Shown one piece after another: positions 23,024 to 57,700 of a DNA stretch of 64,000 bases. Numbering within the stretch: the first letter of the stretch is position 1; every line of letters starts with the position of its first letter. The notes under the pieces are model-generated. The model was not told where the DNA came from, did no database searches, and worked only from the letters and a program-made list of their open reading frames with translations. The translations under genes and the position numbers were made by a program. Source of the DNA: a virus; the IMG/VR virus record IMGVR_UViG_3300045988_088815, positions 32,001 through 96,000 of that record. One strand, written 5' to 3'.

Positions 23024-23374
23024 ATGAAAGAGTTAAGTTTTGATAAGCTATACGTAAAGTTTAGCAATTTATATTGTGAGTATCGTAGTAGAAAGCAATT
23101 CTTGAAGTGGTTGAAATCCTCAAAGAATCTTTCTGAAGAGTTGTTTGAAGTAACGCCAAGTGAAGGTGGTTCGTTTGACGTTGTGTTGTCTTTTGAAGAG
23201 ATAAAGGATGTATTCCCGATTATGGAGAATTCATTGCCTAAGTACGAAAACGATATAAAGCAAGTTCTTTTGGCTATAAAGGAAATGGGACAGCTTGAAG
23301 TTGCAAAGATATGGCATGAGGATGATTGGGGTGATGGCTTTGTAGAGGATTTTTGTAAAACCCATGATATTTAA
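23024..23374 (+). CDS. hypothetical protein
   Basis: 116-aa ORF abutting the methyltransferase gene. Confidence 0.55.
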   Translation: MKELSFDKLYVKFSNLYCEYRSRKQFLKWLKSSKNLSEELFEVTPSEGGSFDVVLSFEEIKDVFPIMENSLPKYENDIKQVLLAIKEMGQLEVAKIWHEDDWGDGFVEDFCKTHDI

Positions 23375-24423
23375 TGAAGATACGGACGTTTGAACTTTGT
23401 GCCGGATATGACTCTCAACTGATGGCTTTGGAGCGGTTGAAGAAGAAATATTCTGATTTCGATTACGAGTGCATCGGATGGTCTGAGATAGAGCCAAATG
23501 CAATAGCTTTGCATAATGCTTGCTTTCCTAGTCTATCCGGCAAGAACTTTGGTGACATGACCAAGATAGATTGGAGCAAGGTAGCCGATTTTGACTTGCT
23601 GACATATTCAACACCTTGCCAGTCTGTTTCGCAAGCCGGAAAGCAGAAAGGAATAGAGGAGGGAAGCAATACACGTTCCTCTATCCTTTGGTTCACAAGA
23701 AACGCCATTATTACCAAGAGGCCGAAATACCTCTTGATGGAGAATGTAGAGGCTTTGGTTCAAACAAAGTTCATAGGGTTCTTTAACAAGTGGCGCAAGG
23801 AGTTAGAATCATATGGATATATCAACTTCGCTAAGGTGGTAAATGCAGCCGACTGCGGTGTTCCTCAGAACAGAAAGCGTGTATTTATGCTCTCTATACG
23901 AAACGATGGTGATAAGATAGATTATCATTTTCCGAGAAAGACAAAACTAGAGAAACACTTGGTTGATGTCTTGGAGGAAAATGTGGATGAGAAGTACTTT
24001 TTTAGTGATGACTTGCTATGTAAAGAGAAATTTGTATCGAATGAATGGAAAGAACCTATGAGTGCAGCTATAAGAACTCGTTCTGAGGGGAAGTGGATAA
24101 AAGGCGAAAAGCATAGTTCAAAGGTCGAACTTGGAAAGAACATAGCCAATACCATTACATCTGCGAGCAAGGACTCCTTGGTTGTGCTTGGAGAGACAAG
24201 GTTGCGCATTAGGCGTTTGACTCCGAGAGAACTCTTCCGCTTAATGAACGTTGACGAAGAATACATAGACAAGATGCTTGAAAGTGGAGTGTCGAAGTCA
24301 AGTCTTCAAAAGGCTGCTGGAAATTCGATTGTCGTAGCTTGCATGGAGAGGATATTCAAGGAACTTTGGTTTTCTGAGAGTAATGTTAAGGTCGCTGATG
24401 ATGGTCAGCTATGCTTATTTTAA
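23374..24423 (+). CDS. dcm: DNA (cytosine-5)-methyltransferase
   Basis: Motifs ELCAGYDS (I), TPCQSVSQAG (IV), MENV (VI), QNRKRVF (VIII) and GNSIVV (X). Confidence 0.9.
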   Translation: MKIRTFELCAGYDSQLMALERLKKKYSDFDYECIGWSEIEPNAIALHNACFPSLSGKNFGDMTKIDWSKVADFDLLTYSTPCQSVSQAGKQKGIEEGSNTRSSILWFTRNAIITKRPKYLLMENVEALVQTKFIGFFNKWRKELESYGYINFAKVVNAADCGVPQNRKRVFMLSIRNDGDKIDYHFPRKTKLEKHLVDVLEENVDEKYFFSDDLLCKEKFVSNEWKEPMSAAIRTRSEGKWIKGEKHSSKVELGKNIANTITSASKDSLVVLGETRLRIRRLTPRELFRLMNVDEEYIDKMLESGVSKSSLQKAAGNSIVVACMERIFKELWFSESNVKVADDGQLCLF

Positions 24424-29875: not shown

Positions 29876-31012
29876 ATGATTTCATACAAGTACAAGCTAT
29901 ATCGGACGAAGAAGACGAAGCATTTGGATAAGATGCTCCGTGAGGCTTGCTATGTTTGGAATCACGCTCTTGCCTTGCAGAAGAGATATTATAAGCTGTA
30001 TCACAAGTACATTCCAAGATTTACTATGTATAAGCATTTCTCTAAGTGTTATAAACCAACATTGCTTAATTGTCAAACAGTTAGGGAGGTGTTGGATAGA
30101 TTGGATATATCTTACAAGCGTTTCTTCAAGCATGATGCGAAGCGTCCACCAAAATTTAAGAAAGCAATAGAATTTGGTTCATTTGCCTTTCAACAAAATG
30201 GCTATTCCCTTAGTGGAAACGAGTTTGTGATAAACAAGATAAAGAAGTCATTTAAGTTCTCTCTGAGCCGTCCCTACGATGGTAAGGTCAAGAGGGTGTC
30301 GGTCAAGCGAAACAAGTTGGGCGAGTACTTTATCGTCCTTTGCTTAGACAAGCAAGCCGAGTCTTACGGAAAGTCACATGATGGTGCATCCGTGGGCATC
30401 GACTTTGGATTGAAGAAGTACATGACTTTGAGCGATGGGCGTGAGATTGATAATCCTCAGTTCCTTAAAACTGACTTGTTGGAGCTTAGACGCAGGTCTC
30501 GCAACCTCTCGAAGTGCAAGAAGGGCAGCAATAACCGCAAGCGCAAGAAGCTGGAGTTGGAGCGATTGTATCAAAACATCGTGAACAAGCGTTCCGATTT
30601 CCAGTGGAAGATGGCGCATGAGTTGTGCAAGCGTTATGACTTGATTTGCTTGGAGGATTTGAACTTGGAGGGAATGAAGCGTAATTGGGGACGCAAGATG
30701 TCTGACTTGGCTCATGGCGATTTCGTTGTGAAGTTGGAACACGTTGCGAAAAAATATGGCGTTCAGGTTCATAAGATTGACCGATTCTTCCCTTCGAGCC
30801 GCCTTTGTACTTGTGGTTATAAGAATGATAAGCTGTCATTGAGTGATAGGGTTTGGACTTGTCCTATTTGTGGTGCAGTTCATCCTAGAGACCTCTTTGC
30901 AGCTGAGAATATACTTCGGCAGGGCATTGCCGAATTGGGTAGTGGTAGTAAGCCGTCCGAGCAATCGCAAGGGTGCAGCCACGTTAGTCACCCAACAATT
31001 CCTTGCAAGTAG
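29876..31012 (+). CDS. tnpB: TnpB (OrfB) RNA-guided nuclease
   Basis: RuvC motifs GIDFGLK, CLEDLNL and HPRDLFAAENI, plus the zinc finger CTCGY...CPICG; typical YKYKLY N-terminus. Confidence 0.9.
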   Translation: MISYKYKLYRTKKTKHLDKMLREACYVWNHALALQKRYYKLYHKYIPRFTMYKHFSKCYKPTLLNCQTVREVLDRLDISYKRFFKHDAKRPPKFKKAIEFGSFAFQQNGYSLSGNEFVINKIKKSFKFSLSRPYDGKVKRVSVKRNKLGEYFIVLCLDKQAESYGKSHDGASVGIDFGLKKYMTLSDGREIDNPQFLKTDLLELRRRSRNLSKCKKGSNNRKRKKLELERLYQNIVNKRSDFQWKMAHELCKRYDLICLEDLNLEGMKRNWGRKMSDLAHGDFVVKLEHVAKKYGVQVHKIDRFFPSSRLCTCGYKNDKLSLSDRVWTCPICGAVHPRDLFAAENILRQGIAELGSGSKPSEQSQGCSHVSHPTIPCK

Positions 31013-33865: not shown

Positions 33866-34408
33866 ATGTTGTACGAAGCAAAACAGGGAAGTAAGGCTTA
33901 TGAATACATTAAGAGTATTCTCGATGCTGAATTTGAAGAGCATCAATCATACATGAAACGAGTAGAAGAAGCCGTTGGCTTCGAGTTTGAGAAGTATCAA
34001 GGTTATCAGCCTAACCGCAGTCTGCTGCGAGAATATGAAATAACCGCCATCTGGATACCATCCGAGCGTTTCGCCACGCTAGATAAAAAAGTATGGAGAA
34101 AGGTAGATAGCAAAATGCTAGAGGATGGCTATTATGTAGCCGTAGCGCCTAACAAGCGATATAAGCAGGGCAAGGCTGTCGCCGCCGTACTTGCATCCTA
34201 CAAGGCTATCACCAACCATTTCAAGATATTGAATGAGTTGGGCATAGGGGATTCTCAAAGTGGTTCTATCTCCATCACTCAGCTTCTCCGTCACAAAGAC
34301 CGCATTTTCGCCTTCTTCGATGATGGCATCCGAGCAGAGAAATGTAACTCCGATTTCAAGGAAATCACGATAGGTGAATATGAGGATCTTATTAATAGCA
34401 AAGATTAA
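33866..34408 (+). CDS. hypothetical protein
   Basis: 180-aa ORF preceded by the GTAAAGCGTATG junction. Confidence 0.6.
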   Translation: MLYEAKQGSKAYEYIKSILDAEFEEHQSYMKRVEEAVGFEFEKYQGYQPNRSLLREYEITAIWIPSERFATLDKKVWRKVDSKMLEDGYYVAVAPNKRYKQGKAVAAVLASYKAITNHFKILNELGIGDSQSGSISITQLLRHKDRIFAFFDDGIRAEKCNSDFKEITIGEYEDLINSKD

Positions 34409-34413
34409 AGCGT

Positions 34414-34803
34414 ATGGCACAGAAATATATTGAAGATGACTTTGTGATGACAAGAACAGAGCCAAACAACTTTACACCAAATGGTGTTGTTTGTAAGTTT
34501 GTTGACTATGAAACAATAGACAAAGTGTTATTAAGAGCGATTAATGGCATTGATGGATTTATTGTAGAAAAAGGTCAGTTTGTTCCTATTCCTCTTACCC
34601 CATCCATTCTAGAGAAGAATGGATGGGAACATAAGGACGATATATATTTCAAGGAATTTCCACACCGAAAGCTTGTAATCATGGATGAGAATGCATATAT
34701 AATCAATGAATGTTGTTCGATGTTTCTTTGTCCAGCCAAGTTTGTTCCACAACTCCAGCACCTTCTCTTCGGTCTTGGTCTTAATCACAAAATGGAGGTG
34801 TAG
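34414..34803 (+). CDS. hypothetical protein
   Basis: 129-aa ORF preceded by the TTAAAGCGTATG junction. Confidence 0.6.
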   Translation: MAQKYIEDDFVMTRTEPNNFTPNGVVCKFVDYETIDKVLLRAINGIDGFIVEKGQFVPIPLTPSILEKNGWEHKDDIYFKEFPHRKLVIMDENAYIINECCSMFLCPAKFVPQLQHLLFGLGLNHKMEV

Positions 34804-34805
34804 GT

Positions 34806-34946
34806 ATGGATGCAATGTTTCAAGTTTGTAAATATTGCAAGCATGCAAAACCAACTGAAACAGATTTACTTTATTGTGAGATTTGGAAACGGAAGGTATG
34901 TGAGCATGAAAGTTGTGACGGAGATTCTGAAAACTATTTTGAATAA
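34806..34946 (+). CDS. small zinc-ribbon-like protein (46 aa)
   Basis: Hand translation with CKYC...C...CEHESC. Confidence 0.4.
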   Translation: MDAMFQVCKYCKHAKPTETDLLYCEIWKRKVCEHESCDGDSENYFE

Positions 34947-34981
34947 GTTTATAACGCCTTCAGACATAAATAAATAGTAAT

Positions 34982-35113
34982 ATGAATGCAACAGAAGCAA
35001 AGAAGACGCTATTTGAGATTAGAAAAAATCTTATTGACGATAAGCAGAAGCATGCTATTTGGTTAGCAATCAAAGCTATTGATTATTGTATAAGATTGAG
35101 GAAAGGATATTAA
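34982..35113 (+). CDS. small hypothetical protein (43 aa)
   Basis: Hand translation MNATEAKKTLFEIRKN... Confidence 0.35.
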   Translation: MNATEAKKTLFEIRKNLIDDKQKHAIWLAIKAIDYCIRLRKGY

Positions 35114-35124
35114 CAGATAGTAAT

Positions 35125-35277
35125 ATGAAAGCAAGTGAGTTGATAGAGCATTTAAAATCTTACATTGACATCACGGGTGGAGATTGTGAAGTACTTGTAT
35201 TTGATAAAGCAGATATTTCTTGTGATATTAAGAATACTTCTACAGATGGTGATTATATATTTCTACACATCATCTGA
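35125..35277 (+). CDS. small hypothetical protein (50 aa)
   Basis: Internal ATG of the 63-aa track ORF. Confidence 0.4.
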   Translation: MKASELIEHLKSYIDITGGDCEVLVFDKADISCDIKNTSTDGDYIFLHII

Positions 35278-35306
35278 TAAATACACAACGAAGACACCAG
35301 AGTAAA

Positions 35307-35343
35307 TAACTATCCCTTATGGGATATAAATATAAGTAATATG
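35307..35343 (+). repeat. intergenic unit U1 (hairpin, GGGATATAAATA, start codon)
   Basis: TAACTATCCCTTATGGGATATAAATATAAGTAATATG; homologous to U2 and U3. Confidence 0.6.
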
Positions 35344-35520
35344 GTAGTATTGTTAACGATTTTAGGAACTATCTTTCTGATAGTTAGTGCAATATTTTGG
35401 TCAGAAACGCCAAAGTTGAGAACAGTAAGTATTGTAATTGCGACAGTGGCAGCAATACTTATGACCTTATGTTATGTAGGCTCTGTGCTTGCACAATATA
35501 TGATAGAATTTACGAAATAA
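35341..35520 (+). CDS. small two-TM membrane protein (59 aa)
   Basis: Hand translation MVVLLTILGTIFLIVSAIFW...IVIATVAAILMTLCYVGSVL. Confidence 0.45.
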   Translation: MVVLLTILGTIFLIVSAIFWSETPKLRTVSIVIATVAAILMTLCYVGSVLAQYMIEFTK

Positions 35521-35521
35521 T

Positions 35522-35563
35522 TAACTAACCATCCTGCAAGGGATATAAATAGAAGAGAATATG
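35522..35563 (+). repeat. intergenic unit U2 (hairpin, GGGATATAAATA, AGAAGAGAATATG)
   Basis: TAACTAACCATCCTGCAAGGGATATAAATAGAAGAGAATATG. Confidence 0.6.
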
Positions 35564-36343
35564 AAGGAATTAAGAAAGAAAACATTTAAGAATGGTGTCG
35601 TGTATTGCCTTCAATTAGAAGATGGTTTCCTTGTTGAAACGACAGATACATTCTTGCCTTATTACACCAAAGATGCAATAGGCAGACATCAGAATAAGCT
35701 CGACAACAATGAGCTTGGCGACCGCACGGAACGTTGGATGATAGGAGTATCTACAATGAGTGGGTGTCCAGTAAGATGCAAGTTCTGTGCTACAGGCAAC
35801 ATGAAACGTTATCGCAATCTTACGGCAGAAGAAATTGTTGAACAGGTTGAATTTGCCATCAACAAGGCAGGTGCTGACCCAAGCAAAGCAAAAGAGTTTA
35901 AGATTAACTATACTCGTATGGGCGAGCCATTCCTCAATATTGATGCAGTCAAGGATGCTATCCGCATTATTACTGAGAAATACCCAAATACTCATCATTA
36001 CGTATCAACGATTGGCATTAAGGGAAGCGATTTCTCTTTCATTAAGGGAAATATTACGTTACAGATTAGCTTACATTCATTTGATGATGACAAGCGTAAT
36101 TGGTTGATTCCTTACAAGAACAAGATGACTATTCAAGAGTTAGGTCAGATTCGCACAGAAAGCAATCTGAAGACTACAATCAATCTTACACTTGTTGACA
36201 CTTCCGATTTTGATGCAGAAAAGCTGAAAAAATGGTTTGATAAGGAGCATTTCTTCGTGAAGTTGTCTCCTATTAATGTGAATAACATATCAGAGAAAAA
36301 TCACCTCGGCAATGGTGTTGTAGAAGGAATTAATTTAGTATGA
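35561..36343 (+). CDS. RlmN/Cfr-family radical-SAM methylsynthase core, C-terminally truncated and lacking the resolving Cys
   Basis: VET..., GVSTMSGCPVRCKFCATG (CX3CX2C in the RlmN context), RNLTAEEIVEQV, RMGEPFLN, STIG, LQISLH and KLSPIN align by eye with E. coli RlmN residues ~100-320. Confidence 0.8.
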   Translation: MKELRKKTFKNGVVYCLQLEDGFLVETTDTFLPYYTKDAIGRHQNKLDNNELGDRTERWMIGVSTMSGCPVRCKFCATGNMKRYRNLTAEEIVEQVEFAINKAGADPSKAKEFKINYTRMGEPFLNIDAVKDAIRIITEKYPNTHHYVSTIGIKGSDFSFIKGNITLQISLHSFDDDKRNWLIPYKNKMTIQELGQIRTESNLKTTINLTLVDTSDFDAEKLKKWFDKEHFFVKLSPINVNNISEKNHLGNGVVEGINLV

Positions 36344-37107
36344 AAAAGGGTATTTTCAGATATAGAATTATCACAAATCTGAATTGCAACATGAACGAAA
36401 GTACAGGAGTAAACGGAAATTGTTACTTCTGCTACCAAAAGTTTAAGTCACCATTGCGACTGGATTGTGATAAGATGGAGGAAACTTTGAAGAAGGTTGG
36501 TGTTCTGAAAAGAGCAACTATCATGGGAGGCGAAAGCTTGCTCAATCCAGATTTGGTAAAGATTGTAAAGATAGTCAGCAACTATACATCTGATGGTATC
36601 TGTCTTGTTACAAATGGAATACTGCTTAATGAGGACATCATCGTTGCATTGAAAGATGCCGGATTAACTGAGGTTGCTATCAGCGTGTCTTCTATCGAAC
36701 AGTACGAAAGACGTAGAGATATGGCACTTCTGTGTAAGGAGATTATTCCAAACACAAGAATAAACATTCCTAAGTGCAAGGAAAGTTTGAATCCACAACT
36801 ACTGAAAACAATACTATCAGATGGTTTCTATAGCATTGTATGCGAAGATTTACAGGCAAGGTATGGTGAGATAAGACTCCCAGATGGTTCTGTAAAGGTT
36901 GGTGATGACGGATATGGATTCTATGATTACAAGTGGAATGGACATACATTTGGAGTATTTGGCAATTATGGGAAGTACAACAGAAGCGATATTATCATAA
37001 CTCCTCTTGGAAATTTCTGTGATTGGGAAAAGTATTGCAAGGCCGTTAAGAACAATGAGCTTGTAAGAAGAAATAATCATATTGATGATGACAAAATTGT
37101 GCATTGA
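36340..37107 (+). CDS. second radical-SAM enzyme (MoaA/SPASM-like core) with spaced cluster motif CX11CX2C
   Basis: ITNLNCNMNESTGVNGNCYFC, IMGGESLLNP and LVTNGILL; ATGA overlap with the upstream gene. Confidence 0.65.
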   Translation: MKKGIFRYRIITNLNCNMNESTGVNGNCYFCYQKFKSPLRLDCDKMEETLKKVGVLKRATIMGGESLLNPDLVKIVKIVSNYTSDGICLVTNGILLNEDIIVALKDAGLTEVAISVSSIEQYERRRDMALLCKEIIPNTRINIPKCKESLNPQLLKTILSDGFYSIVCEDLQARYGEIRLPDGSVKVGDDGYGFYDYKWNGHTFGVFGNYGKYNRSDIIITPLGNFCDWEKYCKAVKNNELVRRNNHIDDDKIVH

Positions 37108-37528
37108 TTTCGGAAGTGGCTATAATCCAAAGGCTGGATATAAAACTTGCGATATAACAACCTTTCCACAATTGGATTTTCAGTATGATGGGAAAGATGA
37201 GATTGTCGGTCTTAGAGAAAAATCAGTAGATGTATTTTATCTAAGAAACGTTGTTCATCATATCCCAGATTTACAGAGAACTTTTATAACCTTGAAGAAG
37301 TATCTGAAGGTAGGTGGGAAGCTAGTTATCATTGATTGCAATAAAGGTCATTATAAGACAAATGTATTTCTTGACAATTTATGGTATAGATTTGTTGGCA
37401 ATAACAACGAAATCTTTATCAGTAAACAGTATAGAGATTACATTAACGTTTTGATAAAGTTAGGTTTTAAGCAATTATATTATAAATCATTTAAAGAAAA
37501 GGAGATTACTAAGTATGAATGCAATTAA
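37082..37528 (+). CDS. class I SAM-dependent methyltransferase
   Basis: CIDFGSGYNP (motif I) and VDVFYLRNVVHHIPD (Methyltransf_11-like). Confidence 0.7.
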   Translation: MMMTKLCIDFGSGYNPKAGYKTCDITTFPQLDFQYDGKDEIVGLREKSVDVFYLRNVVHHIPDLQRTFITLKKYLKVGGKLVIIDCNKGHYKTNVFLDNLWYRFVGNNNEIFISKQYRDYINVLIKLGFKQLYYKSFKEKEITKYECN

Positions 37529-37634
37529 GAATCAATTGGAAAAGATGGGCTACGATTATGCAGTAGCAATCGCAACAAAGGCTGAAATTGAGAATGGAGC
37601 TGCTTGTGGTCAGCTCGCTATTATTTGTGAGTAA
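37515..37634 (+). CDS. 39-aa peptide equal to the detached RlmN/Cfr C-terminal segment with the catalytic Cys (AACGQLA)
   Basis: Hand translation MNAIKNQLEKMGYDYAVAIATKAEIENGAACGQLAIICE. Compare E. coli RlmN [31 protein letters not shown]. Confidence 0.65.
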   Translation: MNAIKNQLEKMGYDYAVAIATKAEIENGAACGQLAIICE

Positions 37635-37635
37635 G

Positions 37636-37689
37636 TAATTAACCACCCTCTCCTTGGCAACAGGGAGAGGGTAAAAAGAAGAGAATATG
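37636..37689 (+). repeat. intergenic unit U3 (hairpin, GGGTAAAA, AGAAGAGAATATG)
   Basis: TAATTAACCACCCTCTCC...GGAGAGGGTAAAAAGAAGAGAATATG; the ends match U2. Confidence 0.6.
37646..37671 (+). terminator. hairpin closing the radical-SAM operon
   Basis: 8-bp stem CCCTCTCC / GGAGAGGG. It is followed by an A-rich rather than T-rich tract, so terminator activity is uncertain. Confidence 0.45.
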
Positions 37690-37983
37690 GACTTAGTAAT
37701 TACAATATTAGGTTGGATTGCATTAGGTGTTATATCTGCTTATCTGTTAGCAATAGTAGGTAAAATAATCTTTGATGCTGCAACCGCTGATTATAAGTTA
37801 TACAAGCATGTAAGATTGTGTCGCAAGAGATTGCTAAGACAGCGATATGAAGATTATGCTTGGCTATTATTCCAGTTAGAGAAAGATACGAAAGTTTTCA
37901 ATCTTACTCATAATACAAGAGATTGGACTTTTGAAGATTGGAGAGAATTTTATCTTAAAAAAGCTAAGGAGGATAAGCTATGA
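37687..37983 (+). CDS. membrane protein (N-terminal TM)
   Basis: ITILGWIALGVISAYLLAIVG. Confidence 0.55.
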   Translation: MDLVITILGWIALGVISAYLLAIVGKIIFDAATADYKLYKHVRLCRKRLLRQRYEDYAWLLFQLEKDTKVFNLTHNTRDWTFEDWREFYLKKAKEDKL

Positions 37984-38114
37984 CTATAACAATACCAATG
38001 TGGCTACTATATGTCGTAGGAGGCATTGTAGCAATCGTATTATTATTTTGTTCGTATGTTGGAATAATTTTTCTGTGGGGTTTTTATGACCCTTTTAAAA
38101 AATTTAGAAAATGA
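37980..38114 (+). CDS. small membrane protein (44 aa)
   Basis: Hand translation MTITIPMWLLYVVGGIVAIVLLFCSYVGIIFLWGF. Confidence 0.4.
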   Translation: MTITIPMWLLYVVGGIVAIVLLFCSYVGIIFLWGFYDPFKKFRK

Positions 38115-38254
38115 ACAAAGATAAAGCAATAGTTCACATTAATAATGTTTCCAAGATGATTGGCTCAAAAAGAATAAAATTAAGTGAAGGCACTACAATT
38201 TATATTCAAAACGAGTTAGTCTTGGCACTTAAAGAGTTGGAGATTAAAGTTTGA
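38111..38254 (+). CDS. small hypothetical protein (47 aa)
   Basis: Hand translation; ATGA overlaps on both sides. Confidence 0.35.
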   Translation: MNKDKAIVHINNVSKMIGSKRIKLSEGTTIYIQNELVLALKELEIKV

Positions 38255-38538
38255 TGAAGAAAATTTATATGATTATAAGAATTTTAACTTGTAAGAAAGT
38301 TATTCTTATCTCAGAGTTAAGTAAAAATTCCTATAAAGTATCCTTTGGTGGTTTATATGAGATTGAAGCAACTAGGGTTCTTAGAAATATTATTTTAACA
38401 AGGAATAGTATGGATAAAGAATTTATAAAAGGTCAGCTTAAAAGTGCTTTGTTTTGGCTCAATACGTCAAATACAAAGAAGAACATCTTGCATGCTAAAG
38501 ATAGTATAAATATGGCAATTAAAGAGTTGGAGGACTAA
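38254..38538 (+). CDS. hypothetical protein
   Basis: 94-aa ORF from the first ATG. Confidence 0.5.
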   Translation: MKKIYMIIRILTCKKVILISELSKNSYKVSFGGLYEIEATRVLRNIILTRNSMDKEFIKGQLKSALFWLNTSNTKKNILHAKDSINMAIKELED

Positions 38539-38539
38539 T

Positions 38540-38743
38540 ATGACAAAGCAAGAAGCAATGGCTTTCGCTATCAGCGTAGGAAAGCCGATAAGGCACAACT
38601 CATTCTCAAAAGGTGAGTTTGTTCGATATGAAGGAAAGGAGTTAGTTGATGAAGAAGGAACTATCCTTCCTCAACAAGAGTTTTGGGCTATCCGTTCAGG
38701 TGGCTCTTGGGAGAATGGATGGGAAGAATATAATGATAATTGA
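38540..38743 (+). CDS. hypothetical protein
   Basis: 67-aa ORF. Confidence 0.5.
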   Translation: MTKQEAMAFAISVGKPIRHNSFSKGEFVRYEGKELVDEEGTILPQQEFWAIRSGGSWENGWEEYNDN

Positions 38744-38745
38744 TT

Positions 38746-38916
38746 ATGACAAGAGAAGAATTACAAAATAAACATGGCGATGCTATCTGTGAGTATTGTA
38801 ACAAGAACATTATCTCAGAATATAACATCGGCATAGGTTGGCTTTGCGAAGGTCAGTATTGTGAGGAAGCACAAGATGGCTACGCAGCAGAAAATAACAT
38901 AGAGTTGGAGGATTGA
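38746..38916 (+). CDS. small Cys-rich protein (56 aa)
   Basis: Hand translation with CEYC...CEGQYC. Confidence 0.4.
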   Translation: MTREELQNKHGDAICEYCNKNIISEYNIGIGWLCEGQYCEEAQDGYAAENNIELED

Positions 38917-38918
38917 TT

Positions 38919-39260
38919 ATGATACAAAAACAGACATGGAAGGATGAAATCAGAATTTTAATAACTGATGAAGAAAATCATGGCTCTGTTCAAATATCCA
39001 TTCCATTATATGTTAGTGATATTTTCGGCAAGGCTGATGCTCTAATATACGCTCTTTGGGTTGATGTTGTTTATAGAAGAAATGGTGTTGCACAACGCCT
39101 GTTACAACTCGCAGAACAACAGGCTAAGTTAAATGGGGTGAAGACAATCGGATTGGAATTTGATAAAGATGAATCTGATAGATTTGTTCTAGATTGGTAT
39201 CTCCGTAGTGGTTATAAATCATTTGATAAGAAAAGTAATTTATTAATTAAAAAAATATAG
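38919..39260 (+). CDS. GNAT-family N-acetyltransferase
   Basis: LWVDVVYRRNGVAQRLLQLAEQQAK matches the acetyl-CoA binding R-x-x-G-x-A motif. Confidence 0.65.
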   Translation: MIQKQTWKDEIRILITDEENHGSVQISIPLYVSDIFGKADALIYALWVDVVYRRNGVAQRLLQLAEQQAKLNGVKTIGLEFDKDESDRFVLDWYLRSGYKSFDKKSNLLIKKI

Positions 39261-39268
39261 TATTAGTT

Positions 39269-39490
39269 ATGTCATGGTTAGCAGTAGATAAAGGTGGCTG
39301 TGAACATATTTTTGCAGAAAAACCTTGCAGAAATGAAAGTAATACATTATGGATTTGCTCTGTCTTATATTTATATGGGCAGAGGTACGCAAATACCGGT
39401 TGCTGTTACCTTCCTAAAGGAAGCATTAAGAAGCTCATCGGAAAAGAATTGTCTTGGAAAGATGAGCCTGTCGAACTTAAAGAAGATTGA
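39269..39490 (+). CDS. hypothetical protein
   Basis: 73-aa ORF; preferred over the overlapping frame 39294-39683. Confidence 0.5.
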   Translation: MSWLAVDKGGCEHIFAEKPCRNESNTLWICSVLYLYGQRYANTGCCYLPKGSIKKLIGKELSWKDEPVELKED

Positions 39491-39491
39491 T

Positions 39492-39683
39492 ATGGAAGAA
39501 TTATTAAAGGCATTATTGGATGTATATATTCCTGTATTAAATGCTAATTGCAAGAAAACGTTTGCATTCTTAGATGAATACGTTCCTCCACCTACAAGGA
39601 AGGAAAGACGTAAACGTGAAAGAGAACTTAAAAAGAAGTTTCCTCTCGATTTGACAAAGTTTATAGAATCACATAGAACTTAA
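39492..39683 (+). CDS. hypothetical basic protein
   Basis: 63-aa ORF from an internal ATG of the track ORF 39294-39683. Confidence 0.45.
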   Translation: MEELLKALLDVYIPVLNANCKKTFAFLDEYVPPPTRKERRKRERELKKKFPLDLTKFIESHRT

Positions 39684-51760: not shown

Positions 51761-54700
51761 ATGGCAGAATTAAGATTCGATGTCAAAGCGAATTTCGAGG
51801 AGGTTACGAAACTTCGTTCCGAGTGTGAAAAGTTGAGGGCTGAGTTATTGAAGACCAATAAGTCTACCGACCCAGCTATTGTTGCGGATTTGACGGAAAA
51901 ATATGCGGATGCTAGCAATCGCTTAAAGGACTTGACACAAGCTGCTTCAAGAGCCGCTTACGTGATGTCTTCCGAGTTTAATAAGAAGATGCAAGCAGCC
52001 GCAAGGGAAGTTTATAGCTATGAACTTCAAATGCAAGCTACCAAAGACCGAATAGAGAAAATCCAACAGCAAATCACGAACAAGAGATTAACTCTTGGAG
52101 TTACAACGGATAAGTCATCCATAGATTCTTTACAGAAGAATATTGACTATTTAAAAGGCTCTTTGGCAGGTCAAACAGCTCAGTTGAAGAACTTAGAAGG
52201 GGGTGCTGTCGGTGCTCGTCAGACCTTGGAGAATATGCGGAATGAGTATGTTTTGTATGCAGGTTCAGCAAATCCGGCAAAAGAGGCAACAAATATGTTG
52301 ACCGATAGCATGAGCCAAATGATAGAACGTATGAAGTCAGCTCCGACTGCTGGAGAAGGAATGACTAGTTTGTTCCAAAGAGTTACTGGCGATGCTCACA
52401 TGCTTTCGGCAACATTACTTGGTGGCTTAGGATTTGAACAACTGGCAGGTAGTATCTTTAATACTCGTTCCCAATTCCAGCAACTTGAAATATCTTTCAA
52501 TACCATGCTTGGTAGTGCGGATAAGTCTAAGCAATTGATGGACGAACTTATCCAAACGGCAGCTCATACACCTTTCGATATGTCCAGCATTACGGGTGGC
52601 GCAAAACAACTTTTGGCATACGGAACGGAAGCGAAAGATGTTAACAAAACCCTTGTCCAGCTTGGTGACATTGCTTCGGGCTTGAACATTCCGCTTGGAG
52701 AACTTGTTTATCTTTATGGAACGACCGTTTCGCAAGGAAGAATGTTCACAATGGATTTGCGTCAGTTCATGGGTAGAGGTGTCCCATTAGCAGAAGAATT
52801 GGGTAAAATCTTACACCAAAACACAACGGAGGTTCAAGAGTCTGTTTCCAAGGGTAAAGTGACATCAGACATCTTCAAGGAAGCTATCGCCAACATGACG
52901 CAAGCAGGTGGACGCTTCGGAGGCTTGATGGAGCAACAATCAAAGACATTGGAGGGTCAGTGGAGTAACATTGGCGATTCCATCCAGCAAGCGTTCAACG
53001 AAATCGGCAAAAAATCCGAGGGCGTGTTCTCTAGTGGATTGTCAATTATTTCTGCTATGGTAGAGAATTGGCAAGAGGTAATAAAAGTTATTGGTGTAGC
53101 TACAATAGCTGTTGGTTCTTATCGTGCATCGTTAATGGCGGCTGCTTCTATTCGCAAAGCTGAGGAAGCGCAACAAGCCGATGATATGATGAAGGGAATT
53201 GATGCAGAAATCAAGCGTTTGCAAGACCTAGAGAACTCAAACTACAAGTCGCTGGGTAAGGACAAAAAGCAAGAGCGAGTAAGCAAACAACAAGACTTGG
53301 CAAGTATTGTTGGAGATACTGCTGTGTCCGATGACTTTGTAAAGGCAAGGTTAGATGCAGCCGAGCAAGAGGGCGTTATTTCGGCACAAATGCGTTCCCA
53401 ACTAGAGACGAAACGTGAACTTTTACAGGCTCAGCAACAAGCAACAGCACAAAGCCAGATAGAACTTGATGAAGAAAAAAGAAAGACCGAGGAACTTCGT
53501 CAACAAAAAATAGAGTCTCTTAAAGATGATTTGAAGACTACTACGGAGAAAATATCAAATCTTGATGATAGGGATGTAGAGTTGGCTAGACAATATACAT
53601 CAGCTTTGAATGATTTACAAGATGCCCAAGATGCCTTTGCTGAGGCTCAAAAATTGGTTGAGGAAACTGCTGGTGGCGCAAACTTGGCTTTTGATGCAGA
53701 GGGTAATGCCGTGAATGCGCTAGAAGCAAAAGAACGTTTGGAAACGGCAACAAAACAAGTGAATGCTGCTCAAACAAAGATTTCGACCATTGAAAGCGAA
53801 CGTAAGACGATTGCTCAAACAAAGGAGAATTTAAGTAAGCAACAGGCTACGATACAAAATAATATTAACACTGTTTCTCAAGCTTCCAATACCACTGCAA
53901 AGAAAGCTGGGATATTGGCGACAACAACAGCCACTATCAAAAATGCGCTTTATGCAGCAGGTACAAAATATACGACTACGGTAGTTAATCTTTTTTCTAG
54001 TGCGGTAAGAAGTAGTGGAAATGCCTTGAAGAGTTTATGGGCGGCAATGGCTGCTAATCCGATAGGTGCATTGATAACACTGGGAACAACTTTGTATTCC
54101 GTATTTTCTATGTTTGGAGACGAGACTGAAGAAATTTCGGCAGATACAACACATTTTGGGGAAACAACAAGTTTGACCAGTAAAAAGGTTGAGACATTGA
54201 TGAATGTGTTGAGAAATACGAATGAAAGTACTGATGCACATAAAAAAGCAAAAGATGAACTTATTGGGGTATATGAACAATATGGAATAAAATGCGACAA
54301 TGAAAAGGATAATTTGGAAACGTTGAAAAATAAGCATGACGCTTTTATTGCTTCTTTACAATTAGAAAATGCTGAACGAGAAAAAGCTAACGCTTTGATG
54401 TCTATATCTTCTCAATATGAGGAAGCAAGGAAAAACCTAGATAAGGATTTTTCTGATTCACTAGGTGGTAGTTGGCTTGATTTCGGACAACATATTGATA
54501 AAGAAGACATATCAGCTGTACAGATGATGTTTAATTCACTTGTTTCTGATGATGCGTTGACTAAGATAGACTCTTTAAGGCAGAAAATGGATTCCGCAAA
54601 GAAAGGAACATTGGAATATGCTAATGCCGCACAAGAATACGATGCTGCTCTTCGCAACCTGTTAGTTCCTTTTGAGGAATGGGGTAAGAAGATGGGGTAC

Positions 54701-57700
54701 AATAGTTTCGTGATGGCAAGTTTGCGAAGTTCGATATTAAAGCATATAGATAGTATAAACTCTTTGAATGAAAGTTACAAAAAGGCAGAGGACGCAATAT
54801 ATAAAGGAAGCACAGCGACTGTTGATTGGAATAACTCCCAAGCAAAGGCTCGTTGGATAGTAAACAAGAACAAGCAATCAATCCAAGAATTGGTAGAGCA
54901 AACTGATAATCTTATCAATTTATGGAATAAAGAATATGGGTTGAATTTAAAAATTCATTATGATGATTCGGAAATTCCAAATTGGATGAAATCTATGACA
55001 ACGAAGGAGTTGCGAAATTTAATTTCAAGGAGAGAGGCGGATATTTTACAACAGGAAAATCACGAAAAGAAAACTGGGCATAAGTTGGTAACACGTTCAG
55101 GAGGTAAGTTTAGGTCAAGAACGGAAAACCAAACGGATGTCGCAATGGCGAAATCTATAATTCAATCACGTATACCAAAGAGTAGTACAACAACAAAATC
55201 AAATACAGCCCATACTACTCCAAAGAAAACAGGTACAACGGATGACCCACAAGCAAGAGCGTATGAACGCAAGAAGGCTGAGGAGGACTATTCCAAGTCT
55301 ATTTCATCCTATTCGGAGAAAGCTATCCAAGATATGACCAAGAATCGCATCAATGCGATGAATGAGGGTTATAGCAAGGAATTGGCTCAGATTACCGAGA
55401 ATGCCGACAAGGAGAAAAAAGCGGTAGAAGATGGTATAGACAAATTGGTTGAGGCTAGGAAAAAGCGTGACCAAGCTGTTTGGGTTAATTCCGGCAAGGG
55501 TCGTAAGGCTAATATGTGGAAACAGAGCAAAACCAATGAAGAGTACAAGAATGAGGTTTTGAATGAAACCATGAAGGATAGCAAGGGTAATCCGGTTAAG
55601 GTCAATGGTATGAATATGACCATAGGCATGAGTGTTGCTAATCAGATGAATGCAATTCGCGATAAGGCGGTAAAGCAGAATGAGGATGTGCTTGCTAAAG
55701 AAGCGCAAAGCATGTACGATTATCTGAAGACTTATGGCACATTCCAGGAGCAGAAGTTAGCTATTGCTGCCGATTATGCTAAGAGGATTAGCGAGGTTGA
55801 AAACTCTACGGATTCGGACTCAAGCAAGCAATGGAAGATAAAGTCTTTGAAAGAAGAGCAGAAGAAAGAGACGGATTCGGTTGAGGCTAGTGCTATTATG
55901 CAGAAGATAGACTGGTATCAAGTCTTCGGAAATGTTGGTGGCATTATGAAAGATGCGCTTGTTCCTTTATTGGCAGATCTGGATAAGTTCGTAGGTACGG
56001 ATAAGTTCCAAAATTTGGGTGCAGACCAGCAGAAGAGTATCGTTGATGCTATGCAGAATATCCGTAATTCGATTGGCAATACAAGTGATTTAGGTTGGAA
56101 AGACCTTGCAAGGGATGTTGTTGCTTATCAGGATGCTCTGAAGAATGCGAAAATTGCACAAGAGGAATACACGAAAACGGAAACTTTGCTTATACCTCGT
56201 ATTAAGGTTTTGCAAGAACAGATTGAGAGTGCGAAAAAGTCGGGCAATGTTGCAGAGCAAACAAGGCTACAAGAAGAATTGAATAAAGTTCAAGGTCAGT
56301 TAGCGGAGTCCGGAAAGAAGATTGTTACGGCTAACACAAAAGTTCGTACTAGTGGTCAGAAGTTGGCTCAAACGACACAGAATGTGACACAACCGATTTC
56401 CGCTATCCATGAGTTCCTTTCTACTTCTGGACTATCCGATTTGGCATCTCTTTGGGATAGTTTTGACCAACTTAAAGGTGGAATTGACGGATTGAAAGCT
56501 TTAAAGGAGGCTAAAAATGCGGCTGACGGACTGAAGGATATGGGTAAGGAAGCCGCAGATGCAGCCGCAGCCGCTGGCAAGAAAGCTGGCGATGCGCTAA
56601 GTGAAGGATTGTCAAAAGCCGGACTTATAGGCCAAATTGTTGCTGCCATTTTGAAGATACTTGATGTTTTGAAGGATGGTATCGGAACATTGATTAGCAG
56701 CTTGATTGATACAGTTCTGAATGCGGTCAATGGTATATTGAAGAACATTCTAAGTGGTGAGTTTATCACACAGATAGGAGGGTCTTTGGTAAGCGGTATC
56801 GGTAATATTCTCAATACAATCTCGTTTGGTGGCTTCAATAGTTTGTTTGGAGTAGGTGGAAACGCAAAAGAAGTAAACCGGACTATAGACAAATTGACGG
56901 CTAGGAATGAAATCTTGACGGATGCAATAGACAGATTACGTGACTCTATAGACAAGACTAGTGGTATCAAAGCCGTAGAAGACTCAGAAAAAGCTGAAAA
57001 ACTTCAAAAGGAAAAAGAGCAAAACCTAAAGGACATCATGGTGGCACAAATGGGTTATCATGGCTCTCATGGAAGTTTTAACCGTTATTTCCGAGGATTT
57101 TCGCAAGAGCAAATCAATAAGGTGTCTGAAGCGATAGGTAGACAATGGAATGGAAACCTAAGCGACATACGGTCTGCTGATGAAGCTAATGCGTTGTTGC
57201 AAAATCCTGATATTGTTAACAAGATTCAGAACACTGGTAAGGGAAATTATGGAGGAAGAGTCCTCGAAAAGTTGAAAGATTATGCGGCTGAGGCAGGAAC
57301 ATTAGAGGATATTGCTGATGACCTAGCAGAAAGCTTGACGCAAATATCTTTTGATAGTTTGAAGAGCGAGTTCATAGATACTTTGATGGATATGAATTCC
57401 TCTGCTCAGGACTTCTCTGATAATTTCTCCAAGATGCTTATGCAAGCCGTTCTGAAAGCTAAGGTAGATGATTTGTTGGGTAATGATATGCAAGCATTCT
57501 ATGATGAGTGGACGGAGCGAGCTAAGGCAAATGGTGGCAAATTGTCTCAGACGGATATTAATGAATTGAAGGGAAGGTACGATGAAATGGTTCAAGAAGG
57601 ACTGAAGATTAGAGATGAAGTAGCCGAAATAACTGGTTACAAGCAATCTTACGAGCAGTCTGCGTCTTCCGGTTCTTTTGAATCCATGAGCCAAGATACA

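What the first reader, a model, noticed from the sequence alone, without database searches (positions are those of the whole stretch)
37515..37634. Unlisted 39-codon ORF encodes the RlmN/Cfr catalytic-cysteine block as a free-standing peptide
The ORF is below the 60-aa track cut-off. Hand translation gives MNAIKNQLEKMGYDYAVAIATKAEIENGAACGQLAIICE. This parallels the E. coli RlmN C-terminus [31 protein letters not shown], including L-x-x-x-G-[FY] and the nearly invariant AACGQLA block. The Cys in that block (Cys355 in E. coli RlmN) carries the methyl group and forms the methylene bridge to the adenine substrate. The ATG overlaps the methyltransferase stop region, and the ORF ends 11 nt before the closing hairpin, so it looks expressed rather than a relic. 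A mobile catalytic-Cys peptide supplied in trans to a radical-SAM core would be mechanistically new.
Basis: partly seen in the sequence, partly recalled or inferred. Interest (0 to 1): 0.85.

Follow-up and report, generated by a model that had tools for sequence, protein, structure and literature searches.

The report
Split phage RlmN-like enzyme's cysteine peptide
A real, strongly conserved 39-codon phage gene encodes the cysteine-bearing tail that RlmN/Cfr radical-SAM methylases normally carry on their own C-terminus, so this widespread phage enzyme is made in two pieces, and because it also lacks the second cysteine that releases the product, its chemistry probably differs from the textbook enzyme.

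Summary
The ORF exists exactly as described (37515-37634, +). On its own it matches no family model. However, the 260-aa radical-SAM protein upstream (35561-36343) is an RlmN/Cfr-like core that stops where the C-terminal Cys loop should begin. Appending the 39 residues extends the RlmN/Cfr HMM alignments to the AACGQL end. A targeted null test gives 0 of 20,000 shuffles reaching its score. The peptide gene is intact next to the core in 74 of 80 related viral loci. It is also intact in 45 of 46 genome loci and in 5 of 5 isolated phages examined, and it is always a separate ORF. Synonymous sites are saturated while the protein is conserved. Most relatives have the two genes 5-59 nt apart, so the rSAM+methyltransferase cassette in this window did not cause the split. 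Rare natural fusions carry the peptide at the N-terminus of the core, and distant unsplit forms exist, which links the two parts functionally. AlphaFold places the peptide as RlmN's C-terminal helix-strand-loop. The family has Gly at RlmN's resolving Cys118. Best reading: a two-piece class-A-like radical-SAM enzyme whose methyl-carrying Cys comes from a separate small protein. Substrate and turnover chemistry are unknown. I found no description in the literature library.

The parts
35561..36343 (+). 260-aa RlmN/Cfr-like radical-SAM core. It has CX3CX2C at C69/C73/C76, Gly62 at the RlmN-C118 position, no N-terminal RNA-binding domain and no C-terminal Cys loop. It ends ...GVVEGINLV*.
   Evidence: TIGR00048 positions 102-299 of 355, E 2e-22, 79.6 bits against a cutoff of 290. 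PF04055 match. Family conservation.
36340..37107 (+). 255-aa second radical-SAM protein (weak MoaA/viperin-like N-terminal half; Cys spacing CX11CX2C). Its start overlaps the core stop (ATGA). It is the first gene of the variable cassette that lies between core and peptide in this lineage.
   Evidence: PF04055 E 3e-13. NCBIfam MoaA-type partial hits of about 50 bits. It is present between core and peptide in 43 of 74 viral loci and absent from the loci in which core and peptide are adjacent.
37082..37528 (+). 148-aa class-I SAM-dependent methyltransferase (motif IDFGSG). It is the second gene of the cassette and overlaps both neighbours.
   Evidence: Methyltransf_11 E 2.9e-6. phrog_5399 'SAM-dependent methyltransferase' E 7.5e-27.
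37499..37504 (+). AAGGAG, a Shine-Dalgarno-like hexamer 10 nt upstream of the peptide ATG, lying inside the methyltransferase coding sequence.
   Evidence: Sequence. It is conserved in all cassette-bearing loci. Relatives in which core and peptide are adjacent have an A/T-rich spacer without it.
37515..37634 (+). 39-codon gene for the detached C-terminal module. AF2 predicts a helix (about residues 1-11), a strand (14-17), a helix (20-26), the loop G28-A-A-C31-G-Q-L34 and a short helix. Cys31 corresponds to RlmN C355.
37645..37672 (+). 12-bp GC-rich hairpin that closes the four-gene operon. It has no U tract.
   Evidence: -24.2 kcal/mol, z -4.0. Single copy in the window. About 55 nt around it is 91-98% identical in two other gut phage records.

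Best explanation
The 39-aa protein is the detached C-terminal module of a two-piece, class-A-like (RlmN/Cfr-type) radical-SAM enzyme. It is translated on its own. In this window translation is coupled to the preceding methyltransferase gene; in most relatives the peptide gene sits a few nucleotides after the core gene. Its amphipathic helix and beta-strand (I4 K5 L8 G12 ... V17 A18 A20 T21) dock onto the 260-aa core where RlmN's own tail packs. This places the G-A-A-C31-G-Q loop in the active site next to the SAM-binding [4Fe-4S] cluster. By homology, Cys31 would be S-methylated by a first SAM. A 5'-deoxyadenosyl radical from a second SAM would then turn the S-methyl group into a thiomethylene radical, which attacks an sp2 carbon of the substrate, most plausibly an adenine in RNA, DNA or a nucleotide. 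The family has no counterpart of the resolving Cys118, so the last step must differ from RlmN. What is shown: homology, independent translation, purifying selection, obligate co-occurrence with the core, fusion evidence and a compatible fold. What is inferred: docking in trans, methyl-Cys chemistry, and the substrate.
For: (1) The core lacks exactly the piece that the peptide supplies. TIGR00048 aligns to model positions 102-299 with the core alone and to 102-342 after the peptide is appended. The Cfr models are then matched to their last residues. phmmer aligns residues 57-294 colinearly to RlmN chain 6fz6, including AACGQL. (2) Targeted significance: 20.8 bits against the tail profile of unsplit relatives, with 0 of 20,000 shuffles and 0 of 1,863 window 39-mers reaching it. 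(3) Conservation. The peptide ORF is intact in 74 of 80 IMG/VR loci. One of the other six is cut by its contig end. Four carry deletions that also truncate the core, and one (L060) is unclear. It is intact in 45 of 46 GTDB loci with core identity of at least 40%. It is present in Kehishuvirus 'tikkala', Moorella phage MTATph1, Vibrio phage D479, Pectobacterium phage Arno18 and Yersinia phage P778. (4) It always has its own ATG. Its frame relative to the core is 0, 1 or 2, and spacers are 5-59 nt or 1.15-1.4 kb, so readthrough or frameshifting does not join the two. (5) Selection. There are 38 distinct nucleotide versions, with mean pS 0.67 and pN 0.11. L033 shows 9 synonymous and 0 non-synonymous differences, and L035 shows 16.5 against 5.5. 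(6) Rosetta-stone fusions. P0125 (315 aa, found on two contigs) and P0148 (695 aa) carry the module at the N-terminus of the core. P0181, P0203 and loci L134, L135, L138 and L160 are unsplit in RlmN order. (7) Structure. AF2 of core plus peptide gives pLDDT 91.6 and pTM 0.91. The peptide part scores 74-88 and the junction scores below 50. The top Foldseek hits are RlmN and Cfr: 6fz6 E 1.3e-15 and TMq 0.72, then 3rfa, 4pl1, 5hr6 and 9p0p. The natural N-terminal fusion P0125 folds its module into the same helix-strand-helix-loop-helix pattern, with pLDDT 86-88 for the helix-strand part. (8) The mechanistic roles of C355 (methyl carrier on a flexible loop) and C118 (indispensable for resolving the crosslink) come from PMC9692996.
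Against: There is no experimental evidence of any kind. The peptide alone is not significant against Pfam, NCBIfam or PDB sequences. The AF2 model was built from a covalent concatenation and from an alignment that contains unsplit homologues, so it shows compatibility and does not show binding in trans. The resolving Cys is absent (Gly in 126 of 127; only the three cluster Cys are conserved in the core), so the canonical catalytic cycle cannot run as known. Tandem or partial duplications of the Cys module (Vibrio phage D479, P0271, P0273) are not explained by a simple 1:1 subunit. The operon is deleted in 4 or 5 of the 80 related genomes, so it is dispensable. The core scores far below the curated RlmN/Cfr cutoffs (87 against 290 bits). 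The substrate is unknown.
Confidence: 0.72

Rival explanations
1. Consumable peptide. The small protein is a single-use co-substrate or carrier and not a stable subunit. With no resolving cysteine, each reaction leaves it covalently bridged (Cys-S-CH2-) to the target base, or otherwise spent, and a fresh peptide replaces it. Making the tail a cheap separate gene product would be the reason for the split.
For: Gly replaces C118 in 126 of 127 family members. In RlmN the C118A change traps exactly such a protein-RNA crosslink (PDB 5hr6 title; PMC9692996). Two full modules in tandem occur in Vibrio phage D479 and in P0271, and a duplicated Cys loop occurs in P0273. These fit 'more charges per polypeptide' better than a 1:1 subunit does.
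Against: Natural cis fusions (P0125, P0148) and unsplit relatives that also lack C118 (P0181, P0203) show that the family works with the Cys tethered to the enzyme. A suicide mechanism is therefore not required by the split. Other unsplit RlmN-like groups ('SNCGQ') also lack C118, which suggests an alternative resolving route exists. There are no data on stoichiometry or adducts.
Confidence: 0.2
2. Peptide as end product. The core is a peptide-modifying radical-SAM maturase and the 39-mer is its substrate, as in a RiPP or a peptide-derived cofactor such as PqqA/PqqE or MftA/MftC. The second rSAM and the methyltransferase would act as tailoring enzymes.
For: A small ORF sits next to one or more rSAM genes. 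Several different second rSAM genes recur beside the pair: rs2 in this window, a 288-aa rSAM plus a 116-aa Cys/Gly/Ser-tailed protein in L076 and L078, a 239-aa rSAM after P0125, and a fused rSAM domain in P0148.
Against: The whole peptide, not just the Cys, is colinear with the structural tail of RlmN, and its helix-strand part is the most conserved region. Pfam and NCBIfam find no RiPP recognition (PqqD-like) or SPASM domain in the core. No protease or exporter genes are evident nearby. Many phages carry only core plus peptide with no tailoring genes.
Confidence: 0.07
3. One polypeptide after all. Core and peptide are joined by readthrough, frameshifting, RNA splicing or protein trans-splicing, and the 'free-standing' ORF is an annotation artefact of a split gene.
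For: The two parts are colinear with RlmN. Mobile elements do target this gene: an intein sits in the CX3CX2C motif of P0122, and an HNH endonuclease lies upstream in P0004.
Against: The relative frame is 0, 1 or 2. Spacers range from 5 nt to 1.4 kb and can contain whole genes. The order is reversed in L112 and L125. Every copy has its own ATG. No intron or other RNA family is found across 34000-39500. The peptide is homologous to RlmN over its whole length and is too short to include a C-intein.
Confidence: 0.01

Closest known systems
RlmN / Cfr, class A radical-SAM methylases (TIGR00048, NF000424; PDB 3rfa, 5hr6, 6fz6, 9p0p)
   Same: They share the radical-SAM core fold (Foldseek TMq 0.58-0.72) and the CX3CX2C motif. 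The tail has the same helix-strand-loop with A-A-C-G-Q-L, and its Cys aligns with the methyl-carrying C355/C338.
   Different: The tail is a separate gene product. The resolving Cys118/C105 is Gly. The N-terminal helical RNA-binding domain is missing, since alignment starts at model position 102. Scores are far below the family cutoffs (87 against 290 bits). The system is encoded by phages of many host groups, and the substrate is unknown.
RlmN C118A, the trapped protein-RNA crosslink (PDB 5hr6/5hr7)
   Same: It is an RlmN-type active site with the methyl-carrier Cys but no resolving Cys. In the laboratory mutant this gives a stable Cys-S-CH2-adenine adduct (title; PMC9692996).
   Different: Here the absence is natural and conserved across the family, and the Cys sits on a 39-aa protein. 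Whether an adduct forms has not been tested.
Phage 'genes in pieces', for example Aeromonas phage Aeh1 nrdA split by the mobE homing endonuclease and T4 topoisomerase gp39/gp60 (from my own knowledge, not checked here)
   Same: An enzyme that is normally one chain is encoded as two phage genes whose products must reassemble.
   Different: No homing endonuclease lies between the halves. The usual spacer is 5-59 nt, the split is ancient (down to about 36-40% core identity), and the small piece is only 39 aa yet carries a catalytic residue.
Small peptide or carrier partners of enzymes, such as PqqA/PqqE, MftA/MftC and LysW (from my own knowledge)
   Same: A protein of 30-55 aa is encoded next to the enzyme that acts on or with it.
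   Different: Those peptides are not homologous to a structural element of their enzyme. Here the peptide is the enzyme's own former tail. No PqqD-like recognition domain was found.

Membership tests
Class A radical-SAM methylases (RlmN/Cfr) | CX3CX2C motif that binds the SAM-cleaving [4Fe-4S] cluster | tested here: met
   GCPVRCKFC with C69/C73/C76. In 127 family members these are conserved 125/127, 127/127 and 127/127 respectively.
Class A radical-SAM methylases (RlmN/Cfr) | Whole-protein score above the curated family cutoff (TIGR00048 290 bits; CfrAB 530 bits) | tested here: not met
   79.6 bits for the core alone and 87.2 bits for core plus peptide. CfrAB gives 57.2 and 65.9 bits.
Class A radical-SAM methylases (RlmN/Cfr) | Methyl-carrying Cys (RlmN C355 / Cfr C338) in a C-terminal A-A-C-G-Q-L loop of the same polypeptide | tested here: not met
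   The core ends before this loop at model position 299 of 355. The loop and Cys are present, but on the separate 39-aa protein, and they align with the Cys of all 32 unsplit relatives in alignment A2.
Class A radical-SAM methylases (RlmN/Cfr) | Resolving Cys seven residues before the first cluster Cys (RlmN C118 / Cfr C105) | tested here: not met
   WMIGVSTMSGC carries Gly62, which is Gly in 126 of 127 and Ala in 1. No other conserved Cys exists in the core. The second Cys of the peptide (C38) is not conserved.
Class A radical-SAM methylases (RlmN/Cfr) | N-terminal helical (HhH-like) RNA-binding domain | tested here: not met
   Alignment to every RlmN/Cfr model starts at about model position 95-108. 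Only 55 residues precede it, and they are predicted as beta-strands plus one helix.
Class A radical-SAM methylases (RlmN/Cfr) | RlmN-type fold of the core plus C-terminal extension | tested here: met
   AF2 pLDDT 91.6. The ten best Foldseek hits are all RlmN or Cfr (E 1e-15 to 2e-8, TMq 0.58-0.72).
Class A radical-SAM methylases (RlmN/Cfr) | C2/C8 methylation of adenosine in rRNA or tRNA through an S-methyl-Cys intermediate | not testable with these tools
   This needs biochemistry.
RiPP or peptide-cofactor systems (rSAM maturase plus precursor peptide) | Peptide-recognition (PqqD-like RRE) and/or SPASM/twitch domain in the maturase | tested here: not met
   Only PF04055 (and a weak Fer4_12 hit) in the core. 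There are no PqqD or SPASM hits at E<=1.
RiPP or peptide-cofactor systems (rSAM maturase plus precursor peptide) | Leader/core organisation with a variable core and associated protease or exporter | tested here: inconclusive
   The peptide is conserved along its whole length and is colinear with an enzyme tail. No protease or transporter was seen among the neighbouring ORFs, but most neighbours are unannotated small ORFs.
Gene split by a mobile element (homing-endonuclease or intron type) | Mobile element or intron occupying the gap between the two halves | tested here: not met
   The gap is 5-59 nt in 29 viral loci. In this window it holds an rSAM and a methyltransferase. No Rfam intron was found in 34000-39500.

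The most novel reading that the evidence does not exclude
The split exists because the peptide is expendable. With no resolving cysteine, the core uses each 39-aa protein once. It fires the S-methyl-derived radical into an adenine and leaves the peptide covalently bridged to a host or phage nucleic acid or nucleotide, or otherwise spent. This would be a natural, phage-encoded counterpart of the RlmN C118A crosslink. Tandem modules, as in Vibrio phage D479, would provide extra shots. It would be a new kind of nucleic-acid-peptide conjugation or sacrificial co-substrate chemistry in radical-SAM enzymology.
Probability: 0.15. Interest if true: 0.92.

Novelty: new variant of a known kind. Interest (0 to 1): 0.72.

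Why it matters
RlmN and Cfr are the only characterised class A radical-SAM methylases, and their mechanism rests on two cysteines in one chain. This report describes a large natural family: 2,837 peptide clusters at 90% identity, and thousands of core proteins. It occurs in crAss-like gut phages, Ounavirinae (the Felix O1-type subfamily) phages of enterobacteria, and Vibrio and Moorella phages. It also occurs in contigs binned with CPR and DPANN genomes. In this family one catalytic cysteine has moved onto a 39-aa protein and the other is gone. That gives a natural system for asking how the methyl-carrier loop enters the active site and how the crosslink can be resolved without C118. It also raises the question of what these abundant phages do with such an enzyme: RNA or DNA base methylation, anti-defence activity, or covalent tagging. 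Several carriers are cultured (Kehishuvirus 'tikkala' on Bacteroides cellulosilyticus, Pectobacterium phage Arno18, Yersinia phage P778), so these questions are directly testable. It is also a clear example of a functional ORF below 60 aa that default annotation cut-offs hide.

Tried and rejected
(1) Standalone family assignment of the peptide failed. Pfam, NCBIfam and a 16-sequence profile against PDB sequences gave nothing. The homology claim therefore rests on the colinear extension, the targeted null test, the fusions and the fold. (2) Group I/II intron or other RNA element between the halves: Rfam at E<=1 over 34000-39500 gave only two sub-threshold chance hits, snoR28 and mir-320. (3) Close relatives among deposited phage genomes by megablast: none, apart from about 55 nt around the hairpin. 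tblastn was needed. (4) Cys16 of the core or Cys38 of the peptide as a substitute resolving cysteine: neither is conserved. Cys16 is A/L/H/S in 27 of 127 sequences, and C38 is G/T/A/S/V/L/I in relatives. (5) The idea that the rSAM+methyltransferase cassette split an intact gene: rejected, because adjacent core and peptide genes are already separate ORFs in 29 viral loci and in most genome loci. (6) Homology among the different 'second rSAM' partners: BLASTP shows none (E 1.1 and 0.015 for single comparisons). The accepted run used the window concatenation plus database proteins. (8) Five literature searches and a term search within one review found no description of a split or phage RlmN-like system. 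The library lacks most subscription journals, so absence is not proof.
Full report
OBSERVATION. The ORF is in the sequence as described. ATG is at 37515, there are 39 codons, and TAA is at 37632-37634 on the + strand. The translation is MNAIKNQLEKMGYDYAVAIATKAEIENGAACGQLAIICE. It is the last gene of a tightly packed four-gene block. The first gene is a 260-aa radical-SAM protein (35561-36343). The second is a 255-aa radical-SAM protein (36340-37107), whose start overlaps the first gene's stop as ATGA. The third is a 148-aa SAM-dependent methyltransferase (37082-37528). The mini-ORF's ATG lies 14 nt inside the methyltransferase's 3' end, with AAGGAG 10 nt upstream. Ten nucleotides after the stop there is a 12-bp hairpin at 37645-37672 (-24.2 kcal/mol, z = -4.0). 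It has no U tract.

IS THE RESEMBLANCE TO RlmN MORE THAN CHANCE? Taken alone, the peptide matches no Pfam or NCBIfam model. A profile of 16 of its homologues finds no RlmN chain among PDB sequences even at E<=10. In context the picture changes.

- The 260-aa protein is an RlmN/Cfr-type core. It aligns to TIGR00048 only over model positions 102-299 of 355 (E 2e-22), so it lacks the family's N-terminal domain and its C-terminal Cys loop.
- Appending the 39 residues extends the alignment to position 342 of 355 and to the last residues of the Cfr models. Scores rise for TIGR00048 (79.6 to 87.2), CfrAB (57.2 to 65.9), PRK11194 (56.6 to 64.0), rSAM_Cfr (54.5 to 61.8), PRK14453 (54.3 to 61.4), PRK14461 (57.5 to 60.1) and PRK14470 (51.1 to 55.2). 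PRK14464 did not extend.
- phmmer aligns residues 57-294 of the concatenation colinearly with RlmN chain 6fz6, ending in AACGQL.
These had been retrieved through their cores, and none belongs to the split family. The peptide scores 20.8 bits. None of 20,000 shuffles reaches that (best 13.6). None of 1,863 39-mers from every open stretch of the window does either (best 6.4).
- JGI's automatic annotation independently labels several of these 39-64-aa proteins 'adenine C2-methylase RlmN'.

IS IT A REAL GENE? A scan of IMG/VR with the core returned 80 loci at 69-100% identity. Both core and peptide are present in 74 of them. One of the remaining six is cut by its contig end. Four carry deletions that also truncate the core, and one (L060) is unclear. 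No locus has an intact core and a broken peptide gene. The peptide ORF always has its own ATG and is 39-44 codons long. The 38 distinct nucleotide versions have mean pS 0.67 and pN 0.11. L033 differs from the window by 9 synonymous and 0 non-synonymous changes, and L035 by 16.5 against 5.5. Invariant residues across the family, including distant members, are E24, A30, C31 and G32. G12, A20, T21 and Q33 are at least 90% conserved. The second cysteine (C38) is not conserved.

THE SPLIT IS OLD AND WAS NOT MADE BY THE CASSETTE.
- In 29 of the 74 viral loci the peptide gene follows the core stop after only 5-59 nt. Its reading frame is 0, 1 or 2 relative to the core. This excludes readthrough or a fixed frameshift.
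- In 43 loci, including the window's lineage, the rSAM+methyltransferase cassette sits between the two genes.
- In L076 and L078 a different insert sits there: a 116-aa protein with a Cys/Gly/Ser-rich tail plus a 288-aa canonical rSAM.
- The order core-rSAM-methyltransferase-peptide recurs in lineages whose cassette is only 59-64% identical to this one.
- In GTDB genomes, 45 of 46 loci with core identity of at least 40% have a free-standing peptide gene within 2 kb on the same strand. In L112 and L125 it lies upstream of the core.
- All five isolated phages I opened have it. Kehishuvirus 'tikkala' is crAss-like and infects Bacteroides cellulosilyticus; the gene is a 43-aa 'hypothetical protein'. 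Moorella phage MTATph1 has a 40-aa version. In Vibrio phage D479 the module is present twice in tandem in a 93-aa ORF. In Pectobacterium phage Arno18 (Ounavirinae) and Yersinia phage P778 the module lies in the second gene downstream.
- A profile search of 5.8 billion proteins finds 2,837 clusters at E<=0.01. The best 120 are all 39-76 aa.

LINK BETWEEN PEPTIDE AND CORE. A library of one representative per 50%-identity cluster shows what surrounds this family. Split cores all end ...SPIN.N..S..N..G.G.I...N[LI][VLI]* and reach down to about 31-40% identity. P0181 and P0203 (35% identity) and loci L134, L135, L138 and L160 are unsplit in the RlmN order, with a tail ...GFAYAYAPAIDEEIRHQAACGQAL. 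P0125 (315 aa, seen on two contigs) carries the module at the N-terminus of the core, which is a circular permutation. P0148 (695 aa) is module-core-second rSAM in one chain. Independent fusions in a different order are classical evidence that the two products work together.

STRUCTURE. AlphaFold2 on core plus peptide used 48 sequences, including unsplit relatives. It gave pLDDT 91.6 and pTM 0.91. The junction (255-257) scores below 50. The peptide part scores 88, 85, 74 and 86 per ten-residue block. It forms a helix (259-271), a strand (274-277), a helix (280-286), the Cys loop and a short helix. The ten best Foldseek hits in the PDB are all RlmN or Cfr: 6fz6 (E 1.3e-15, TMq 0.72), E. coli RlmN 3rfa, 4pl1 and 5hr6, and Cfr 9p0p. 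The natural N-terminal fusion P0125 folds its module into the same helix-strand-helix-loop-helix pattern (pLDDT 86.9 overall, 86-88 for the helix-strand part). One caveat applies. The window model is a covalent concatenation, so it shows that the peptide fits as RlmN's tail. It does not show that the peptide binds in trans.

WHAT IS MISSING. In RlmN the methyl group is first placed on C355, which sits on a flexible loop. A 5'-dA radical then generates Cys-S-CH2•, which adds to adenine C2 and gives a protein-RNA crosslink. C118 is indispensable for resolving that crosslink, and C118A traps it (PMC9692996; PDB 5hr6 title). In 127 members of the phage family the C118 position is Gly in 126 and Ala in 1. 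The only conserved cysteines of the core are the three cluster ligands. The N-terminal helical RNA-binding domain is also absent. By its defining features, then, this is not an RlmN or a Cfr. It is an RlmN-like enzyme with the methyl-carrier Cys supplied by a second gene and no known resolving residue.

MOST LIKELY MECHANISM. The peptide is translated separately. In this window translation is coupled to the methyltransferase gene; elsewhere it is coupled to the core gene. The peptide docks through its conserved helix-strand segment where RlmN's tail packs, and it presents Cys31 to the SAM/[4Fe-4S] site. By homology, Cys31 is S-methylated and then converted to a thiomethylene radical, which attacks an sp2 carbon, most plausibly adenine in RNA, DNA or a nucleotide. 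The final step must differ from RlmN. Homology, independent translation, purifying selection, obligate co-occurrence, fusions and a compatible fold are shown. Docking in trans, the methyl-Cys chemistry and the substrate are inferred.

RIVALS. (a) The peptide is a consumable that ends up crosslinked or spent. This is favoured by the missing C118 and by tandem Cys modules in Vibrio phage D479, P0271 and P0273. It is weakened by cis fusions and by unsplit relatives that also lack C118. (b) The peptide is the end product, as in a RiPP or cofactor pathway. This is suggested by the recurrent extra rSAM genes. It is weakened by full-length colinearity with an enzyme tail and by the absence of RRE or SPASM domains. 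(c) The two parts are joined into one chain. This is excluded by variable frames, spacers and gene order, and by the absence of any intron signal.

CONTEXT. The window is a large tailed-phage genome segment. It holds 2,087-aa and 2,307-aa tail-type ORFs, a DNA methyltransferase, an RNase H and a transposase. A 135-kb contig in the assembly of Segatella copri HF1825 carries a near-identical operon: core 97%, second rSAM 99%, methyltransferase 97% and peptide 100% amino-acid identity. Segatella (Prevotella) copri is therefore the likely host.

NOVELTY. Five full-text literature searches and a term search within one review returned nothing on a split or phage-encoded RlmN-like system. The proteins sit in databases as 'hypothetical' or as auto-labelled fragments. 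I rate it a new variant of a known kind. It would be categorically new only if the consumable or crosslinking reading proves right.

Noticed in passing
L084 (Vibrio phage D479, OZ195776.1) 3300-3581; also P0271 and P0273: In D479 and P0271 the Cys module (VKEAGFDAGLAIATDAEV.AGAACGQMAIL) occurs twice in tandem in one small ORF. In P0273 only the Cys loop is duplicated. Repeated duplication of the catalytic-Cys unit is not explained by a simple 1:1 subunit model.
   Followed up: partly
L076 6783-8000 and L078 6556-7773: Between core and peptide these lineages carry a different insert. It consists of a 116-aa protein with a helical N-terminus and a Cys/Gly/Ser-rich C-terminal tail (it looks like a precursor peptide) plus a 288-aa canonical CX3CX2C radical-SAM protein. 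In L076 the rs2+methyltransferase pair lies 1.2 kb further downstream.
   Followed up: partly
window 36340-37107 (second rSAM): The cluster motif is spaced unusually, CX11CX2C (C16...C28..C31, 'CNMNESTGVNGNCYFC'). The L076 homologue has CX5CX2C. Only the N-terminal half resembles MoaA/viperin-type rSAM proteins, and the function is unknown.
   Followed up: no
P0122 (601 aa), also P0178 and P0188: A homologue of the core carries an intein with a LAGLIDADG-like insert exactly at the third Cys of the CX3CX2C motif. P0004 (438 aa, 32 contigs) has an HNH_3 endonuclease ORF running into the core's start. Mobile elements repeatedly target this gene.
   Followed up: no
window 37634-37691: The roughly 55 nt around the operon-closing hairpin are 98% and 91% identical to stretches in two otherwise unrelated human-faecal phage records (MT835610.1, MT835597.1). 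Nothing else in the 2.4-kb query matched any deposited phage. This may be a shared regulatory or terminator element.
   Followed up: partly
L001, L036, L070, L073 (and possibly L060): Four, possibly five, of the 80 related viral genomes have deletions that remove the 3' part of the core (or of rs2) together with the peptide gene and downstream ORFs. The window-coordinate break points are 36824->40875, 36314->38745, 36316->37845 and 36141->38902. The operon is therefore dispensable in some genomes.
   Followed up: yes
L088 (NZ_JANDWX010000006.1, Segatella copri HF1825, 135,577-bp contig): A cultured S. copri isolate's assembly contains a near-identical copy of the four-gene operon (97-100% amino-acid identity). 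This suggests the host of the window's phage and a possible source of material.
   Followed up: partly
L081 (Kehishuvirus 'tikkala') 1455-2672; hits H11 and H14: An SPFH/band-7 (prohibitin-like) gene lies just upstream of the core in the crAss-like phage. RlmN-like hits in Stenotrophomonas and Xanthomonas phages are annotated 'prohibitin family protein'. This could be a recurring association or fusion.
   Followed up: no
representatives P0183-P0269: Other short RlmN-like families surround this one. An unsplit 'SNCGQ' group lacks C118. A 'GGCGQLW' group has C118. A roughly 270-aa 'IGVSL..GC.VGC.YC' group ends ...GF.YA.R and has no Cys loop at all. All appear uncharacterised.
   Followed up: no
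window 29876-31012 and 23374-24423: A 378-aa transposase (phrog_506, E 2.5e-88) and a 349-aa DNA methyltransferase (phrog_116, E 1.8e-68) lie upstream in the same phage segment. Two giant ORFs, 1938-8861 (2,307 aa) and 51761-58024 (2,087 aa, tape-measure-like), flank the region.
   Followed up: no
window 37509-37646, minus strand: A 45-codon antisense ORF overlaps the whole peptide gene. The substitution pattern (synonymous in the + frame) indicates that the + strand frame is the one under selection.
   Followed up: partly
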